The position numbers and the translations under genes are program-made. Of a stretch of 64,000 nt of DNA, positions 3,552 to 16,635 are shown piece after piece (position 1 is the first letter of the stretch; each line of letters starts with the position of its first letter). Source of the stretch: Ostreococcus lucimarinus (lineage: Eukaryota); assembly GCA_000092065.1 (NCBI GenBank), contig CP000588.1; one strand, given 5' to 3'. The notes beneath the pieces are model-generated. The model saw only the letters and a program-made list of their open reading frames with translations, did not search any database and had not been told where the DNA came from.

Positions 3552-4643
3552 TCACGCCTCGGACAGAGACGCGCGATACGGCGACGCGGTTAAGACGTCG
3601 ACGCCCGTCTCGGTGACGAGCAGCGTGTGCTCGCACTGCGCCGTCCACTTCCCGTCCGCGGTGACGCTCGTCCATCCGTCCTTCCACATCTTGTCTCGAG
3701 TCGTCCCGATCGTCAGCATGGGCTCGATGGTGAACGTCTGACCGACCCGCAGCGTCCCCGGGTCGTTGTTGCGATGATGCCGCACCGTCGGTCCGCTGTG
3801 AAACACCTTCCCCACGCCGTGCCCGACGAACTTATCCACCACCCCGAACTTGGCGTCGTCCGCGATCTGATGAATCGTCGCCCCGATCTTCCTCACCGGC
3901 GTCCCGGGCTTACAAATCGCGATCGCCGCGTCCAGCGCTCGCTCCGTCGTCTCCACCAGCCGCCGCACCTCCTCCGTCACGTTCCCCACCATGATCGTCC
4001 TCGACGTGTCGCCGTGATACCCGTTCAGGTACACCGTGACGTCAATATTTATGATATCTCCGTCCAGGATCACCGTGTCGTCCGGGATTCCGTGACAGAT
4101 GCACTCGTTCAGGCTCGTGCACACGCTCTTCGGAAACCCGCCGTAGTTCAACGGGCTCGGATACGCCCCCGCCGCGATCGTCATCGCGTGCACCGCCTCG
4201 TCGATGTCGTTCGTCGTCGTCGTCCCGGGCGTGATCATCTTTTCCGCCATGTCCAGCACCTCCGCCGCGAGTCTTCCCGCGCGTCGCATCCCCTCGACGT
4301 CCGCCGCCGTCGTCTGCACCTGCACGACGCCGTCGTCGTACTCGGGCAGGTGTCCGTCCCTCGCGTACGGCGGCTGCGGCTCGATCGACGCCGGCACCGT
4401 CTTCTGCGGCGCGTACGTCCCCGGTCGAAGCGGCGCGCGCCCGTTGTACCACGTCGCCTCGTCGCGCGCGCGGTCCCTCGCGACGTTGAGCAGGTCGCCG
4501 AGCAGGCCCTTCTTCTTCGCGCGCGTCTCCGTCGCGCGCGCGCCGAAGCGCGGGCGCCGGAGACGGTCGAGCGACGCGCGAGGACGACGCGCGACGGCGC
4601 GCGCGAACGCGAGGGCGTCGGCGCGACGCGCGGCGACGCGCAT
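3552..4643 (-). CDS. Methionine aminopeptidase type 1 (organellar MAP1D-like) with an N-terminal transit peptide.
   Basis: It has a full MetAP1 pita-bread fold with the metal ligands (D..D..H..E..E context: GHGVG, HSGP, EPM). The internal ATG at 4643 gives 364 aa. The 205 codons upstream in the track ORF are low-complexity and Ser/Ala-rich. Confidence 0.85.
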   Translation of the reverse strand: MRVAARRADALAFARAVARRPRASLDRLRRPRFGARATETRAKKKGLLGDLLNVARDRARDEATWYNGRAPLRPGTYAPQKTVPASIEPQPPYARDGHLPEYDDGVVQVQTTAADVEGMRRAGRLAAEVLDMAEKMITPGTTTTNDIDEAVHAMTIAAGAYPSPLNYGGFPKSVCTSLNECICHGIPDDTVILDGDIINIDVTVYLNGYHGDTSRTIMVGNVTEEVRRLVETTERALDAAIAICKPGTPVRKIGATIHQIADDAKFGVVDKFVGHGVGKVFHSGPTVRHHRNNDPGTLRVGQTFTIEPMLTIGTTRDKMWKDGWTSVTADGKWTAQCEHTLLVTETGVDVLTASPYRASLSEA

Positions 4644-12161: not shown

Positions 12162-13595
12162 TCACGCCGTGCGCGCCAAGAACCCGCCGCCTCGCGTCGG
12201 CAGCTCCCACGCGCGATTTACGTCGAACGCGTCGCCAACGGCAGCAATTGGTGGGGCGTCCAAATCTTCGTCCGAAATCGCGATCAGCGTCGCGTCTAGT
12301 ACCGATCGAACCGTCGTGTCGGGATGTTTCGAACGCTTTTGTAAATCTTCCTCGACCAAGCGCCGCCACGCCTTGTTGTTGGCGCACCCGTGGAATAAAT
12401 TTTGAATAGGATGCATCATGTGACGAACGCTCGGAATGCGATACCCATCCTTCGCGGTACCGTATCTACCGATCGTTTCATCCGCGTACACCGCGTACTT
12501 GTTCAAAAAGTCGCGCCTGGACGCGCTCGGGTTGGACGCCTCGCCGAAGAGCGTGGTGTCCGCGGCGCTGAGCAACCCCCACGGATCCGCGTGTGCCTGT
12601 CGACCAATCATCGCCCCCACGATCGGCCCTCCGTCCTCGGGCCCGCGTTTGAGAACGTTCTTCACATCGTTCAGCGTCTTTAATCCACCGTTCAAGTGAA
12701 ACTCGCACTCGGGAAAATCTCTCGCCAACGCGTACGCCCACTCGTGCTTGAGCGGAGGCACCGTTCGATTCTCCGCGGGCGACAATCCGGCGAGCAACGC
12801 TTTGCGCGCGTGCACGTAAAATCGACGCGTCGAGCTCCCCGCGACGATGCGTTCGACGTAATCGCACAGATCGTCGTACGAATCCACGTCATCGACCCCG
12901 ATTCGACACTTCACGCTCACCGGCGTCCCCTCGGGCGCGTTCTCCGCCATCGCCGCCAGGCACTCCGCCACCAACCCCGGCTCCGCCATGAGCGCCGCTC
13001 CGAAGCACCCCTTCCCCGCCACCTTCGGGCTCGGGCATCCACTGTTCAAATTTATCTCGTCGTACCCGTACGGCGCCGCGATCGCCGTCGCGCGTCCTAA
13101 ATATTCCGGCGTCGACCCTCCCAACTGCAGCACCGTCCCAAACGTCGCCGCGGGATAATCCAAAAATTTATCCACCCGATCCCCATCTCGCGCGCTGTGC
13201 GTCACCGTCTGATCCACCTCCATCTCCGTCCACAGCATGACGCGCCTGGACATCAACCGCGCCATGACGCGAAAGTGCGGCGTCGTGTACTCCATCATCG
13301 GCGCGACGCTCAGCGCCGCGCGTCCCGCGTCCACGCGTTCCCGCGTCGCGCGCGCGCGCTCCACGTCGACGCCCTCGACGCCCGGTCCGCGGACGTAACA
13401 CTCCGACGCCCACAACCACGTCGACGCGCTCGCCTTCGTCGCGACGCCGCGCGCGTCGCGTCGTCGCGCCGCCACCGCGCCGTCGCGCGTCGTGCTCCGC
13501 CCGTCGCGTCGCGTCGTCGCGCGCGCGTCGCGCGTCGCGCGCGCCGTTCGCGCGCGCATCGCGCGCAGCATCGACCGCGGCGCGCCGCGGCGCAT
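12162..13595 (-). CDS. tRNA-dihydrouridine synthase (DusA-like, bacterial type) with a transit peptide.
   Basis: It has the Dus TIM-barrel motifs (APMMEYTTPHFR..., LNSGCPSPKVAGKGCFGAALM, VKCRIG). A roughly 95-aa R/A/T-rich extension sits at the N-terminus. Confidence 0.85.
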   Translation of the reverse strand: MRRGAPRSMLRAMRARTARATRDARATTRRDGRSTTRDGAVAARRRDARGVATKASASTWLWASECYVRGPGVEGVDVERARATRERVDAGRAALSVAPMMEYTTPHFRVMARLMSRRVMLWTEMEVDQTVTHSARDGDRVDKFLDYPAATFGTVLQLGGSTPEYLGRATAIAAPYGYDEINLNSGCPSPKVAGKGCFGAALMAEPGLVAECLAAMAENAPEGTPVSVKCRIGVDDVDSYDDLCDYVERIVAGSSTRRFYVHARKALLAGLSPAENRTVPPLKHEWAYALARDFPECEFHLNGGLKTLNDVKNVLKRGPEDGGPIVGAMIGRQAHADPWGLLSAADTTLFGEASNPSASRRDFLNKYAVYADETIGRYGTAKDGYRIPSVRHMMHPIQNLFHGCANNKAWRRLVEEDLQKRSKHPDTTVRSVLDATLIAISDEDLDAPPIAAVGDAFDVNRAWELPTRGGGFLARTA

Positions 13596-13654
13596 CGACG
13601 CGCCGCGCGCCGCGACGACGCGCGATTCGTCGCGTCGGCGTCACTCTGTGCCGC

Positions 13655-14272
13655 ATGCGTCCATCGTTCGCGACGCCGCGCGCCGCGACGCCGCGCGCCG
13701 CGACGCCGCGCGCGGCGCGAGCGACGCGCGCGACGCCTCGGCGCGCCGCGACGCCGACCCGCGCGACGCGCGACGACCGCGCGAGGGATCTGTTCGCCAA
13801 TTTGTACCGGGGCGGCGGTGGGAAACAAATCTACTACGGCGTGTTTCAGCGCGACGCGCCGGCGAGCGCGACGAAGAGCGAGGAAGCGCGCGCGCGATCG
13901 CGCGATGAAGCCGCGAAGACGCTGACGAACATCGACGCGGAGGAACGCGGACGACGGATGGAGGTGGGGAAGGCGGCGGGCGCGGCGACGGCGGCGCTCG
14001 CGGCGGCGCAGCTGGCGCTGGGGGCGACGCGCGTCGAACGGTTGGCGATCGCGGTGCCGCTGTTCTTCGCGCTCGGGTTCGTGGGAAGCGCGAAGACGGG
14101 GTTGTGAAACATCGCGCAAGCCGGCGTTTGGGACGTCGATGGCACTGGTTTGCAAGATATCGAGGACGAGTCGGTGGCGACGGCGATTCGTAAAAAGGTT
14201 AACGATTTTAACGGTAAAAGCGCGGCGGCGGTGGCGGTGATCACCGCGATGTACGTCGCGCTGCCGGTGTAG
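13655..14272 (+). CDS. Small two-TM membrane protein. The conventional ORF is 13655..14107 and ends at TGA. The frame then continues for 54 more codons to a TAG at 14270..14272, so this is a candidate selenoprotein with UGA decoded as Sec.
   Basis: The start at 13655 is an ATG, 60 bp from the divergent Dus start. The predicted product has a transit-peptide-like N-terminus, a TM helix (LAIAVPLFFALGFVGS), the TGA, and then NIAQAGVWDVDGTGLQDIEDESVATAIRKKVNDFNGKSAAAVAVITAMYVALPV, which includes a second hydrophobic helix. A SECIS-like hairpin and a TGTAA signal follow, as described in the next feature. Confidence 0.45.
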
Positions 14273-14301
14273 ACGTCGGTCGTCGAACGGTGTCGTTCGG
14301 T

Positions 14302-14376
14302 GGGATGGTGCGCCGTGACGGCGCGCGCCGAAAGCGCTGACGCGTTCAGCGAGGCGCGCGCTCGATACGCCATCTC
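14302..14376 (+). promoter_or_regulatory. SECIS-like stem-loop in the 3' UTR of the gene at 13655.
   Basis: Helix I is GGGAUGG / CCAUCUC, followed by an internal loop. The core is G-UGA-C (14316-14318) opposite C-GA-U (14364-14365). Helix II is a 10-bp stem, GGCGCGCGCC / GGCGCGCGCU. It is followed by unpaired AAA (14331-14333) and a mini-stem, CGCUG / CAGCG. This layout matches a type-2 SECIS. A TGTAA signal follows at 14409..14413. Confidence 0.4.
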
Positions 14377-14457
14377 ACTTTGTGACGCGCGAGAGTTTGG
14401 CGATGTGTTGTAAAATTACGCTTCTTTCATTTCAATCTAGAGAAGACGATTTCGTTA

Positions 14458-16635
14458 TTAGTCTGTCTTCGGCGGCGGCGCGACGGATCGCACGTGCAGA
14501 TCGGCGTATTGGGCGTCGCTCACTTGTCCCGGCGCCTCGGTGAGCAAGCACTGCCCGGCGGCGGTTTTCGGGAACGCGATGACGTCGCGAATCGATTTTG
14601 CCCCCGCGAGCATCATCACCAATCGATCGAGCCCGAACGCGAGACCGCCGTGCGGTGGGGCGCCGTATTGGAACGCCTCCATGAGGTAACCGAACTTGTT
14701 CTCCGCCTCTTCGTCGCTCAAACCGATGGCGCGGAAGACTTTTTCTTGCACGTCTCGACGATAAATACGCAGCGATCCACCGCCAATTTCCACGCCGTTA
14801 TACACCAAATCATACGCGATCGCGCGCGCACCGGTTAAATCATCCGGATTCGCCGCGGCGTCGTCTTGGTTGGGCGCCGTGAACGGGTGGTGCATCGCCT
14901 CGTAACGGTTTTCGTCCTCGTTGAACTCAAACATCGGGAACTCAGTGATCCACAGCACCGCGTGCGCGTTCTCGGGGATCATGTCGTACGTCTTCGCGAT
15001 GTACTGTCGAACGCGATCGAGGGTTTTGTTCACCAAAGCCTTGTTCCCCGCCGCGAAGAGCATCAAATCCCCGGGCTTGGCGCCCGAGGCGGAGATCATC
15101 GCCGCCGCGTGCGCCGCCGTCCCTTCGACCAAACCCTTCGCACCTTCGAGCGATTTCCCGTCATCGGCGACGCGCGCGAACGCCAAACCGCCCGCGCCCG
15201 CCGCGAGCGCTTCGTTGAACACATCACCCTTCGGTTTGAGCTTCGAGTTCGGTATTTTCTTATCGTCGTCGACGACGAGCGCCTTGACGGTGCCGTTGGA
15301 CTCCGCGAGCGCGTCGGCGAAGATTTTGAACTCACATCCCGCCAACGCGTCGTCGAGCGTGGTCATCTCTAACCCGTATCGCAAATCTGGTTTATCGCTG
15401 CCGTACTTTTCCATCGCATGCGCGTATGTCATCTGCGGAAAACTCGCCGGCAAATCGACGTCGACGCCGCTCTTGAACGCGGCGCGCATTAAATCCTCTG
15501 CGAGCTTCATGATCCCGGCGTCATCCGTGAACGCCATCTCGATGTCGAGCTGCGTGAATTCCGGTTGACGATCGGCGCGCAAGTCTTCGTCTCTGAAGCA
15601 CCTCGCGACTTGATAGTATCGATCGACGCCCGCAACCATGAGCATTTGCTTGAAGAGTTGCGGTGATTGCGGCAACGCGTACGCCCCCCCCGGCTGCAAA
15701 CGACTCGGCACCAAGTAATCCCGCGCCCCCTCCGGCGTGCTTCGCGTCAGCATCGGCGTTTCGACCTCTAAAAACCCGTAATCGTCCTCCATCACCTTGC
15801 GCAACGCGCGGAGCGTATCGTGACGAAGCTTTAAATTCCTCGCCATTTGCGGTCGACGCAAATCCAACACGCGATGCTCCAAACGCGTCTCCTCCTTGAT
15901 TTCCTCCTTCTCCCCGCTCGACTCCGACACCGCGAACGGCAACGATTTCCCCACAGAGTTCAAAATCTTCAACTCCGTGACCACGAGCTCGACCGTCCCC
16001 GTCTTTGTCTTTTTATTCACGCTCTTCCTCGCTCGAACCGTCCCTCGCGCGCGCACCACGCACTCCTGTCTCAAGTTCCCGAACGTCTCCCGCACCTCCG
16101 CCGACGCGTCCTCGTCCGCGACGATCTGCGCGATTCCACTGTGATCGCGCACGTCCGCGAACGCGATCCCGCCCATATCGCGCGATTTATCGATCCATCC
16201 GCACAGCGTCGCCTCCGCGCCGACGTCCCCGTCCCGCAGCGTCCCCGCCAGCCGGTCCCGGCTCGGCCACTCCAGCGCCTCGCTCGACGACGACGACGCG
16301 CGCGCGCGCGTCGAGTCCACCCTCGCCATCCCTCGCGCGCGCTCGCGCGCGCATCGCGCGCCGTGCGCCGTCGTGAACGCGCGCGCGACGCGCGTCCGCG
16401 TCCCCACCGCGCTCGCCGTCTCCGCGCCCGCGCGCGCCGCCCTGGCCGTCTTCGCGCGCGCGCTCGACGCGAATCGCGCGCGCATGAGCTCGCGCTCGAG
16501 TCGGAAGCGCGCGAGCGACATCGCGCGCGACGACGCGACGCGGCGGACGACGACGCGCGTCGACGTTTGAGGTTTTGGCGTCGTCGACGACGACGCGCGC
16601 GCAGAACGCGACGCCGCGCCCGCGCGCGCGCGCAT
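14458..16635 (-). CDS. Aspartyl-tRNA synthetase, bacterial/organellar type.
   Basis: It has an N-terminal anticodon-binding OB fold (TLCGWIDKSRDMGGIAFADVRD), class II motifs 1-3 (QLFKQMLMVAGVDRYYQVARCFRDED...GGGSLRI...GLAFGLDR) and the bacterial insertion domain. The true start may be an internal Met (e.g. 16521), because the 5' end overlaps the divergent HPP gene. Confidence 0.9.
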   Translation of the reverse strand: MRARAGAASRSARASSSTTPKPQTSTRVVVRRVASSRAMSLARFRLERELMRARFASSARAKTARAARAGAETASAVGTRTRVARAFTTAHGARCARERARGMARVDSTRARASSSSSEALEWPSRDRLAGTLRDGDVGAEATLCGWIDKSRDMGGIAFADVRDHSGIAQIVADEDASAEVRETFGNLRQECVVRARGTVRARKSVNKKTKTGTVELVVTELKILNSVGKSLPFAVSESSGEKEEIKEETRLEHRVLDLRRPQMARNLKLRHDTLRALRKVMEDDYGFLEVETPMLTRSTPEGARDYLVPSRLQPGGAYALPQSPQLFKQMLMVAGVDRYYQVARCFRDEDLRADRQPEFTQLDIEMAFTDDAGIMKLAEDLMRAAFKSGVDVDLPASFPQMTYAHAMEKYGSDKPDLRYGLEMTTLDDALAGCEFKIFADALAESNGTVKALVVDDDKKIPNSKLKPKGDVFNEALAAGAGGLAFARVADDGKSLEGAKGLVEGTAAHAAAMISASGAKPGDLMLFAAGNKALVNKTLDRVRQYIAKTYDMIPENAHAVLWITEFPMFEFNEDENRYEAMHHPFTAPNQDDAAANPDDLTGARAIAYDLVYNGVEIGGGSLRIYRRDVQEKVFRAIGLSDEEAENKFGYLMEAFQYGAPPHGGLAFGLDRLVMMLAGAKSIRDVIAFPKTAAGQCLLTEAPGQVSDAQYADLHVRSVAPPPKTD

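What the first reader, a model, noticed from the sequence alone, without database searches (positions are those of the whole stretch)
13655..14413. Candidate selenoprotein: in-frame TGA, a sensible 54-codon extension, a SECIS-shaped 3' UTR hairpin and a distal TGTAA.
The small membrane-protein ORF stops at TGA (14105-14107). The same frame stays open for 54 more codons and ends in a second hydrophobic helix before a TAG at 14270-14272. A stem-loop 30 nt downstream has every hallmark of a type-2 SECIS: helix I, an internal loop, a UGA/GA quartet, a 10-bp helix II, unpaired AAA and an apical mini-stem. The first TGTAA poly(A) signal lies after this element, at 14409, not after the TGA. Mamiellophyceae and Chlamydomonas are known to be selenoprotein-rich, and a 'membrane selenoprotein' MSP has been described in them. 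The predicted protein has no Cys and would be a single-Sec membrane protein. Caveats: stop-free runs are common in GC-rich DNA, the SECIS core reads GUGA rather than AUGA, and the extension uses AT-richer codons.
Basis: partly seen in the sequence, partly recalled or inferred. Interest (0 to 1): 0.7.

Follow-up and report, generated by a model that had tools for sequence, protein, structure and literature searches.

The report
Known Ostreococcus selenoprotein gene ("Hypothetical protein 3")
The in-frame TGA is a real selenocysteine codon in a small membrane-protein gene with a working-looking SECIS hairpin behind it, but this exact gene was already published in 2007 as Ostreococcus lucimarinus selenoprotein "Hypothetical protein 3", whose function is still unknown.

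Summary
It is not new. The TGA-read-through protein (13655-14272, 205 aa) matches the "O. lucimarinus hypothetical protein 3" selenoprotein in the supplement of Lobanov et al. 2007 (PMC2375036), and it is not MSP.

- **Codon conservation:** all 34 related algal loci I fetched carry TGA at this codon, never TAA, TAG or TGY.
- **Coding extension:** the next 54-56 codons stay open. dN/dS is mostly 0.1-0.3, and changes fall mainly at third codon positions.
- **Cys homologues:** some distant, diatom-type homologues have Cys at the aligned position.
- **SECIS:** a GUGAC...AAA...CGAU hairpin follows the second stop in nine lineages, with compensatory base changes. The "non-canonical" GUGA is the published norm for Ostreococcus.
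- **What does not count as evidence:** the open extension (29.5% of stops in this window are followed by at least 54 open codons) and the bare sequence motif are both at chance level.

It has no Pfam family and no solved structural relative. Diatom-type members carry plastid-type presequences. Function remains unknown.

The parts
13655..14104 (+). Coding sequence before the Sec codon (codons 1-150). It encodes an R/A/T/P-rich presequence containing ATPRA x3, the conserved GKxIyYGVFqRD and LTNIDxxERxRR motifs, and two hydrophobic segments, the second being PLFFALGFVGSAKTGL.
   Evidence: Homologues. Hydropathy.
14105..14107 (+). TGA decoded as selenocysteine (residue 151).
   Evidence: TGA at the homologous codon in 34/34 fetched loci and in Elliptochloris. 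Cys in P0119, P0166, P0176, P0184, P0191 and P0199-P0204. Printed as U in Lobanov 2007 supplement 2.
14108..14272 (+). Coding sequence after Sec: 54 codons (NIAQAGVWDVDGTGLQDIEDESVATAIRKKVNDFNGKSAAAVAVITAMYVALPV) plus the true stop TAG at 14270-14272. It ends in a C-terminal hydrophobic helix.
   Evidence: Purifying selection: dN/dS mostly 0.08-0.4, with differences by codon position 386/302/880.
14300..14380 (+). Type-2 SECIS element in the 3' UTR. Helix I 14300-14310/14368-14378; G+UGA 14315-14318; helix II 14320-14329/14353-14362; AAA 14331-14333; mini-stem 14335-14340/14346-14351; GA 14364-14365.
   Evidence: Fold (z -3.4). Rfam SECIS_1 26.2 bits, E 0.025. Own covariance model gives one strong hit in the window, 82 bits at 14303-14378. 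Covariation over 9 orthologous elements.
14409..14413 (+). TGTAA, the likely poly(A) signal of this gene, downstream of the SECIS.
   Evidence: Only + strand TGTAA between 12340 and 23296; the motif is enriched in the window, 39 against 25 +/- 4.7. A TGTAA follows the SECIS in L001, L003, L004 and L005 and is visible after it in L017 and L023. Its function as a poly(A) signal is inferred, not shown.
12162..13595 (-). Divergent upstream neighbour, a dihydrouridine synthase (Dus)-like gene. It is context only and serves as a synteny marker.
   Evidence: ORF. PF01207 Dus lies on the same side in L001 and L003-L005.
14458..16635 (-). Convergent downstream neighbour, aspartyl-tRNA synthetase. Its stop lies 45 nt beyond the TGTAA. 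It is context only and serves as a synteny marker.
   Evidence: ORF. tRNA-synt_2/GAD domains in the same position in L003-L006.

Best explanation
This is the nuclear gene for the Ostreococcus lucimarinus selenoprotein published as 'Hypothetical protein 3'.

Recoding step. The mRNA runs from about 13655 to a poly(A) site just after TGTAA (14409). The UGA at 14105-14107 is not a terminator. The type-2 SECIS hairpin at 14300-14380 has a kink-turn quartet UGA/GA, an unpaired AAA and an apical mini-stem. By analogy with established eukaryotic Sec decoding (SBP2, eEFSec, Sec-tRNA[Ser]Sec), it is expected to recruit the Sec-insertion machinery, so that residue 151 is selenocysteine and translation ends at TAG 14270. 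The product is 205 aa.

Protein anatomy (shown). There is a basic, acid-free presequence; a small soluble region (GKxIyYGVF hairpin and LTNIDxxERxRR); and two hydrophobic helices. Sec sits directly at the end of the second helix (..GFVGSAKTGL-U-NIAQAG). An invariant WDVDGxG loop, an amphipathic helix and a C-terminal membrane helix follow.

Function (inferred). Sec/Cys is the only conserved redox residue, so the most likely chemistry is a single selenol/thiol acting at the membrane surface. Candidates are a peroxidase- or reductase-like selenenic acid or selenenylsulfide cycle with an external thiol, or an intermolecular bond in a dimer. All eight diatom-type homologues retrieved carry a signal peptide followed by an AxA|F cleavage motif, which marks plastid import in diatoms. 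The Ostreococcus protein has a transit-peptide-like N-terminus. The protein is therefore most likely a plastid membrane protein.

The recoding and the conservation are shown by the data. Localisation and chemistry are inference.
For: Identity with the published gene
- 202/202 aligned residues are identical to 'O. lucimarinus hypothetical protein 3' in supplement 2 of PMC2375036. The three one-residue gaps are machine-read PDF dropouts.
- It is 64% identical (E 6e-67) to O. tauri hypothetical protein 3.

The TGA is a sense codon
- TGA is kept in 34/34 related loci, and the frame stays open for 54-56 codons with conserved amino acids.
- dN/dS in the extension is mostly 0.08-0.4, with third-position excess 386/302/880. 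This is stronger constraint than in the 60 codons upstream.
- About 170 of 205 family proteins in public databases end exactly before this codon, 11 have Cys and 6 have W, the last being TGA read as Trp by the gene caller.
- Elliptochloris carries TGA at the same codon, with the conserved WDVDGTG exon after an intron.

The SECIS
- The architecture fits the search criteria of Lobanov 2007: NTGA, 12 nt to the AAA, then GA.
- GUGAC and CGAU are invariant in 9 lineages. 81.3% of cells are paired against 69.5 +/- 2.1 in shuffles (0/500) and 36-51% in slid controls. 14 of 23 pairs change on both sides. Helix II is 88.5% paired with 5/10 compensatory pairs.
- The window has only one strong hit to the model.

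Protein
- AF2 model of the Cys-form homologue P0204: pLDDT 82, pTM 0.72, with a helical membrane topology.
- Plastid-type presequences in P0184, P0197, P0198, P0200 and P0202-P0205 are visible. Reading them as plastid-targeting signals rests on my own knowledge of the diatom ASAFAP motif.
Against: - There is no proteomics, 75Se labelling or ribosome profiling.
- Rfam SECIS_1 stays below its gathering score: 26.2 against 35 in the window, and 24.2 in L005. It misses the other orthologues.
- The covariation counts were made on an alignment fitted to my own model, which leans towards the structure.
- No SECIS was found within 900 nt downstream of the Elliptochloris gene.
- For function: no Pfam family, no PDB sequence or fold relative, and no second conserved Cys to suggest a resolving residue.
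- Plastid localisation has not been tested with any predictor.
Confidence: 0.95

Rival explanations
1. This is an ordinary 150-aa protein that terminates at TGA 14105. On this view the open 54-codon extension and the hairpin are by-products of GC-rich DNA.
For: 29.5% of stops in this window are followed by >=54 open codons. The linear SECIS motif is at chance frequency. Rfam SECIS_1 is below its gathering score. Public gene callers annotate the 150-aa form.
Against: TGA, never another stop, is present in 34/34 loci, with the same frame open behind it. The extension is under purifying selection. Cys homologues read straight through. The SECIS covaries. The gene was published as a selenoprotein.
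Confidence: 0.02
2. The extension is made by SECIS-independent stop-codon read-through, with a near-cognate tRNA inserting Trp, Cys or Arg at UGA rather than selenocysteine.
For: Some database entries show W at this position.
Against: The W entries are explained by gene callers using a TGA=Trp code on metagenome contigs. A conserved, covarying SECIS sits in every Mamiellophyceae 3' UTR examined. The only sense-codon replacement seen is Cys, the classical Sec substitute. The organism has a large SECIS-dependent selenoproteome (PMC2375036).
Confidence: 0.02
3. The gene is a member of the MSP (membrane selenoprotein) family known from Chlamydomonas, Volvox, Dictyostelium and Ostreococcus.
Against: MSP of O. 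lucimarinus is a different gene (Chr_1 146656-147396) with the motif PSLVG[AS]UCWPLL. BLASTP of the two proteins gives E 0.38 over 18 residues.
Confidence: 0.01

Closest known systems
'Hypothetical protein 3' selenoprotein of Ostreococcus tauri and O. lucimarinus (Lobanov, Fomenko, Zhang, Sengupta, Hatfield, Gladyshev 2007, Genome Biol 8:R198). It is probably the family kept as 'Hypo' in Jiang et al. 2020, BMC Genomics 21:699.
   Same: It is the same gene. The protein is identical to the printed O. lucimarinus sequence, with U at residue 151, and 64% identical to the O. tauri one. The SECIS has the G-before-quartet and long mini-stem described for Ostreococcus.
   Different: There is no difference in the gene itself. 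It has 405 clusters at 50% identity, including a trebouxiophyte and diatom-type members, with both Sec and Cys forms. The link to 'Hypo' is my inference from that paper's abbreviation list, not a sequence match.
MSP, membrane selenoprotein (Chlamydomonas, Volvox, Dictyostelium, Ostreococcus)
   Same: It is a small multi-helix membrane protein with Sec in or next to a hydrophobic segment. It occurs almost only in the Sec form and its function is unknown.
   Different: There is no sequence similarity (E 0.38). The Sec context differs (UC in LVGSUCWPLL against GLUNIAQAG), and it lies at a different locus.
YgaP-like transmembrane domain (Pfam PF11127, formerly DUF2892), a two-helix hairpin with a conserved Cys after the second helix
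   Same: There is a superficial resemblance: a basic R-rich stretch before helix 1, two helices, then G-[FL]-C/U-x-[MI]-A right after helix 2 (ISGFCGMA in E. coli YgaP against KTGLUNIA here).
   Different: The resemblance is not supported statistically. Pfam hits appear in only 3 of 21 members, with best E 0.061, well under the cutoff. hhalign probability is 0.5% against the YgaP sequence and 0.2% against a YgaP profile. It should be treated as a resemblance only.

Membership tests
Eukaryotic SECIS-dependent selenoprotein gene | In-frame UGA with the reading frame continuing to a second stop | tested here: met
   TGA 14105-14107, then 54 open codons to TAG 14270. This is not significant on its own: 29.5% of stops in the window are followed by >=54 open codons.
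Eukaryotic SECIS-dependent selenoprotein gene | UGA conserved at the same codon in orthologues, with the downstream sequence conserved as protein | tested here: met
   34/34 loci have TGA and a conserved extension. dN/dS is mostly 0.08-0.4, with differences by codon position 386/302/880.
Eukaryotic SECIS-dependent selenoprotein gene | Homologues with Cys aligned to the UGA | tested here: met
   P0119, P0166, P0176, P0184, P0191 and P0199-P0204 have Cys in ..G[LMIV]-C-N[IV][AG]Q.G.WD[VI][DE]G.
Eukaryotic SECIS-dependent selenoprotein gene | SECIS in the 3' UTR: helix I, internal loop, NUGA/NGAN quartet, helix II placing unpaired AA(A) 10-13 nt from the quartet, and an apical loop or mini-stem | tested here: met
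   Fold of 14300-14380. There are 12 nt between UGA and AAA, and the helix lengths fit the criteria quoted from Lobanov 2007. The own scanner also finds it.
Eukaryotic SECIS-dependent selenoprotein gene | SECIS structure supported by covariation in orthologues | tested here: met
   9 lineages. 81.3% of cells paired against 69.5% in shuffles (0/500) and 36-51% when slid; 14/23 pairs show two-sided changes. Caveat: the alignment was fitted to the model.
Eukaryotic SECIS-dependent selenoprotein gene | Curated-threshold match to a SECIS model (Rfam SECIS_1, or SECISearch3/Seblastian) | tested here: inconclusive
   Rfam SECIS_1 scores 26.2 bits against a gathering score of 35, with E 0.025 on 2 kb. 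L005 scores 24.2 bits and the others are missed. SECISearch3 and Seblastian are not available here.
Eukaryotic SECIS-dependent selenoprotein gene | Selenium shown in the protein (75Se labelling, or MS of a Sec peptide) | not testable with these tools
   Literature only. Lobanov 2007 labelled O. tauri cells with 75Se but did not assign a band to this protein. PMC8834552 lists an O. tauri selenoprotein 'ostta08g03600 Unknown' quantified by proteomics. That is probably the orthologue, but I did not verify this.
'Hypothetical protein 3' (Lobanov et al. 2007) | Sequence identity or homology to the published O. lucimarinus and O. tauri proteins, with U at the same residue | tested here: met
   202/202 aligned residues identical. 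64% identity, E 6e-67, to O. tauri.
MSP (membrane selenoprotein) | Homology to the MSP alignment, with the Sec motif LVG[SA]UCWP[LV]L | tested here: not met
   The motif is absent and BLASTP gives E 0.38.
YgaP-like_TM / DUF2892 (PF11127) | Match to the Pfam model at its gathering score, or a significant profile-profile match | tested here: not met
   Best score is 11.2 bits against a cutoff of 25.3, and only 3/21 members match at E <= 10. hhalign probability is 0.2-0.5%.
EF-hand / dockerin-type Ca2+-binding loop (DxDxDG) | 12-residue loop with liganding side chains at positions 1, 3, 5 and 12, and Gly at position 6 | tested here: inconclusive
   D-V-D-G-T-G-L-Q-D-I-E-D aligns to the dockerin loop DVDGNGSVRIND of 4uyq_B/4uyp_B, but only at E 0.36-0.76. 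Position 5 is T/S/N, but A in several members, and position 3 can be E.

The most novel reading that the evidence does not exclude
The gene itself is known, but the family may be more than a two-species curiosity. On this reading it is a widespread and ancient plastid-membrane selenoprotein family of marine photosynthetic eukaryotes (prasinophytes, a trebouxiophyte, diatom-type stramenopiles). It would have a fold unlike any solved structure, with a lone Sec/Cys at the membrane surface acting together with the adjacent invariant WDVDGxG acidic loop. That loop could bind Ca2+ or another metal, giving a redox- or metal-sensing or detoxifying function in the plastid membrane. The family is almost invisible in databases because about 85% of its members are truncated at the Sec codon.
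Probability: 0.2. Interest if true: 0.45.

Novelty: already known. Interest (0 to 1): 0.2.

Why it matters
For the scan, this is a true positive. A reader working from sequence alone correctly recognised a selenoprotein gene that automatic annotation truncates. Public databases hold the 150-aa form, and about 170 of 205 family members retrieved end at the Sec codon.

Scientifically the gene adds nothing new, because it has been in the Ostreococcus selenoproteome list since 2007.

The residual value is practical:
- It documents a systematic mis-annotation across hundreds of metagenomic and genomic entries. One example is an NCBI gene model in Elliptochloris that splices around the TGA.
- It shows that this still uncharacterised family is large, is mostly Sec-dependent, has no Pfam model and no structural relative, and probably resides in plastid membranes. 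These are useful starting points if anyone wants to give 'Hypothetical protein 3' a function.

Tried and rejected
- **Pfam.** Scans of the window protein and of 21 full-length family members found no family. The only hits were sub-threshold ones to Apo-CII and YgaP-like_TM.
- **YgaP/DUF2892 link.** I fetched E. coli ygaP, built a YgaP TM profile and ran hhalign. Probability was 0.2-0.5%, so the link is rejected.
- **PDB by sequence.** The only hit was a weak dockerin-loop similarity, E 0.36.
- **Rfam on the orthologous loci.** Only L005 gave a SECIS_1 hit, at 24.2 bits. The whole-window scan at E <= 1 listed no SECIS.
- **Linear SECIS motif in the window.** It occurs at chance frequency.
- **First covariation count.** I mis-registered the structure on the MAFFT alignment, so that result is meaningless and was discarded. 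I redid it with a covariance-model alignment.
- **My first strict SECIS scanner.** It allowed no mismatches and found only the window-type element. The other lineages have one mismatch or bulge in helix II.
- **Elliptochloris SECIS.** None was found in 900 nt downstream.
- **A second selenoprotein gene in the window.** I looked for the GPx that the 2007 paper places about 24 kb away on chromosome 8, but it is not in the window near 37.4 kb.
- **Sensitive HMMER search with a U-to-C full-length query.** I used the pre-TGA profile instead.
- **Cluster look-ups.** They gave no organism names.

Full report
**What is in the sequence.**
The ORF starts at ATG 13655 and meets TGA at 14105-14107 after 150 codons. 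The same frame continues for 54 codons to TAG 14270-14272, and the 205-residue product has no Cys.

- an 11-bp helix I;
- an internal loop holding G-UGA (14315-14318) opposite GA (14364-14365);
- a 10-bp helix II;
- unpaired AAA (14331-14333);
- a 6-bp apical mini-stem.

Its MFE is -46.9 kcal/mol against -35.4 +/- 3.4 for shuffles (z -3.4). TGTAA at 14409 is the only + strand copy between 12340 and 23296.

**Is it more than chance within the window?**
- In this 60-70% GC window, 29.5% of all stops in the six frames are followed by at least 54 open codons.
- The linear motif GTGA..AA..CGAT occurs 21 times against 20.8 expected.
- Rfam SECIS_1 matches 14304-14374 at 26.2 bits, below the family's gathering score of 35. 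E is 0.025 for the 2-kb search.

The case has to rest on comparison with other sequences.

**Comparative evidence for recoding.**
A protein search with the read-through product returned 55 relatives. All but one end exactly at ...GF[VA]GSAKTG[LA], that is, at the same stop.

I fetched DNA for 34 related loci from metagenomes and assemblies. In the ten loci whose called genes were listed, Dus lies upstream in five (L001, L003-L005; L002 only by its near-identity to L001) and AspRS downstream in four (L003-L006). In every locus:
- the codon is TGA, never TAA, TAG or TGY;
- the frame stays open for 54-56 codons wherever the contig reaches the second stop (it ends earlier in L007 and L022);
- the extension reads NIAQAGVWDVDGxGLxEIEDxSxAxAIRxKVNDFNxKSA plus a hydrophobic tail.

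Nei-Gojobori estimates over nine lineages give dN/dS mostly 0.08-0.4 for the 53 codons after the TGA. Differences by codon position are 386/302/880. This constraint is tighter than in the 60 codons before the TGA, where the counts are 641/485/946.

A profile search of 1.84 billion representative proteins found 405 clusters at E <= 1e-3. Of the 205 family proteins I retrieved:
- about 170 stop exactly before this codon;
- 11 carry Cys there;
- 6 carry W, which is what a TGA=Trp gene caller would print.

In Elliptochloris bilobata the homologous exon reads ...ASGVSGL-TGA-SIAL. The conserved ASVWDVDGTGMQFIED exon follows after an intron. The deposited gene model avoids the TGA by splicing round it.

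**Comparative evidence for the SECIS.**
A GUGAC...AAA...CGAU hairpin lies 30-240 nt after the second stop in all Mamiellophyceae-type loci examined. In two lineages the AAA is replaced, by ACC in one and AGA in the other.

I built a covariance model from eight of these elements. In the 64-kb window it finds only 14303-14378 strongly (82 bits). The next hit scores 21.7 bits in GC-rich DNA.

On nine elements aligned to the model:
- GUGAC and CGAU are invariant;
- 81.3% of cells pair, against 69.5 +/- 2.1 in shuffles (0/500) and 36-51% when the 3' partners are slid;
- 14 of 23 pairs change on both sides;
- helix II is 88.5% paired, with 5 of 10 pairs compensatory, for example G-C/A-U at positions 2, 5 and 6.

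The alignment was fitted to the model, which favours the structure. The slid controls and the two-sided changes are nevertheless clear.

**It is already published.**
The supplement of Lobanov et al. 2007 (Genome Biol 8:R198, PMC2375036) prints 'O. lucimarinus hypothetical protein 3', with U in ...SAKTGLUNIAQAGVWDVDG..., and locates it at Chr_8 [589802, 590269]. It matches the window's product at 202 of 202 aligned residues. The three one-residue gaps are dropouts of the machine-read PDF. The O. tauri counterpart is 64% identical. The window is therefore O. lucimarinus chromosome 8.

The same paper states that all but one SECIS in each of the two Ostreococcus species have G before the quartet, and that almost all O. 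tauri SECIS have a long apical mini-stem.

The gene is not MSP. That family has the motif LVGSUCWPLL, lies on Chr_1, and shows no similarity to this protein (E 0.38).

Jiang et al. 2020 still list a 'Hypo' (hypothetical selenoprotein) family that is about 80% Sec-containing. That this is the same family is my inference. A 2022 O. tauri proteomics paper lists a selenoprotein 'ostta08g03600 Unknown'. This is probably the orthologue, but I did not verify it.

**What the protein might do.**
There is no Pfam family, no PDB relative by sequence and no PDB relative by fold.

An AlphaFold model of the diatom Cys form P0204 is confident (pLDDT 82, pTM 0.72). It shows:
- a small beta-hairpin plus helix;
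- two membrane helices, with the Cys/Sec immediately after the second;
- a short loop formed by WD[VI][DE]GxG;
- a long amphipathic-to-membrane helix, plus a further helix in diatoms.

Two leads were tested. A resemblance to the YgaP/DUF2892 hairpin (ISGFCGMA against KTGLUNIA) is not statistically supported. The DVDGxGxxxIED loop resembles a dockerin/EF-hand Ca2+ loop only weakly (E 0.36), and a liganding position is not conserved.

All eight diatom-type homologues retrieved start with a signal peptide followed by AxA|F. From my own knowledge of diatom plastid targeting (the 'ASAFAP' motif), this points to plastid import. The Ostreococcus N-terminus is basic and free of acidic residues.

My best guess is a plastid-membrane protein using a single selenol at the membrane surface. 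That is inference only.

**Verdict.**
The novelty class is 'already known'. Interest is low, apart from the annotation lesson and the breadth of the family.

Noticed in passing
L008 3880-4400 (Elliptochloris bilobata GCA_040144335.1, JALJOU010000012.1): The trebouxiophyte homologue has TGA at the Sec-equivalent codon (4000-4002: ..GGC CTA TGA TCC ATC GCC CTG). The NCBI gene model (P0055) splices round it. A second, diverged copy of the same exon end (AAAAGTGGCCTGTGATCAATTGCCCTG|gtaatc, about 4108-4145) lies about 110 nt downstream and has a better GT donor. No SECIS was found in 900 nt after the stop.
   Followed up: partly
Family-wide (proteins P0001-P0205): About 170 of 205 database proteins of this family end exactly before the Sec codon. 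Six show W there, which is TGA translated as Trp by the gene caller. This is systematic truncation or mis-translation of a selenoprotein family in public protein collections.
   Followed up: yes
P0184, P0197, P0198, P0200, P0202-P0205 (N-termini): Diatom-type homologues, one of them named Mayamaea pseudoterrestris, begin with a signal peptide followed by an AxA|F junction (for example TLASVHA|FAPR and AGIAA|FAPQ). This is the hallmark of plastid import in diatoms. Both Sec (W or truncated) and Cys forms occur among them.
   Followed up: partly
window 13670-13714 (+): There are three tandem copies of a 15-nt unit (GCGACGCCGCGCGCC) encoding ATPRA x3 in the presequence of the selenoprotein. The surrounding 13400-13760 is extremely CG-dinucleotide-rich, with a GC fraction of 0.73 for window 13001-14000.
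   Followed up: no
window, whole (TGTAA sites): TGTAA is over-represented in the window, 39 against 25 +/- 4.7 in shuffles with none of 100 shuffles reaching 39. It sits just after the SECIS in the four orthologous loci scanned that have one. This fits its use as a poly(A) signal in these algae.
   Followed up: partly
window 14409-14460: The selenoprotein gene and the convergent aspartyl-tRNA synthetase gene (stop at 14458-14460, minus strand) leave only about 45 nt between the TGTAA and the neighbour's stop codon. The two 3' UTRs must abut or overlap.
   Followed up: no
window 13582-13656 (-): The second-best hit of my SECIS model scores 21.7 bits. It contains GUGAC...CGAU and lies in the 60-bp divergent promoter and 5' region between the Dus gene and the selenoprotein gene. 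I judged it GC-rich noise, because it is not in a 3' UTR and has many non-pairs.
   Followed up: partly
PMC8834552, table of O. tauri selenoproteins: A selenoprotein listed only as 'ostta08g03600 Unknown' was quantified by proteomics and scored as rhythmic. Chromosome 8 matches the O. tauri location (CR954208) given in 2007 for Hypothetical protein 3, so protein-level data for the orthologue may already exist.
   Followed up: no
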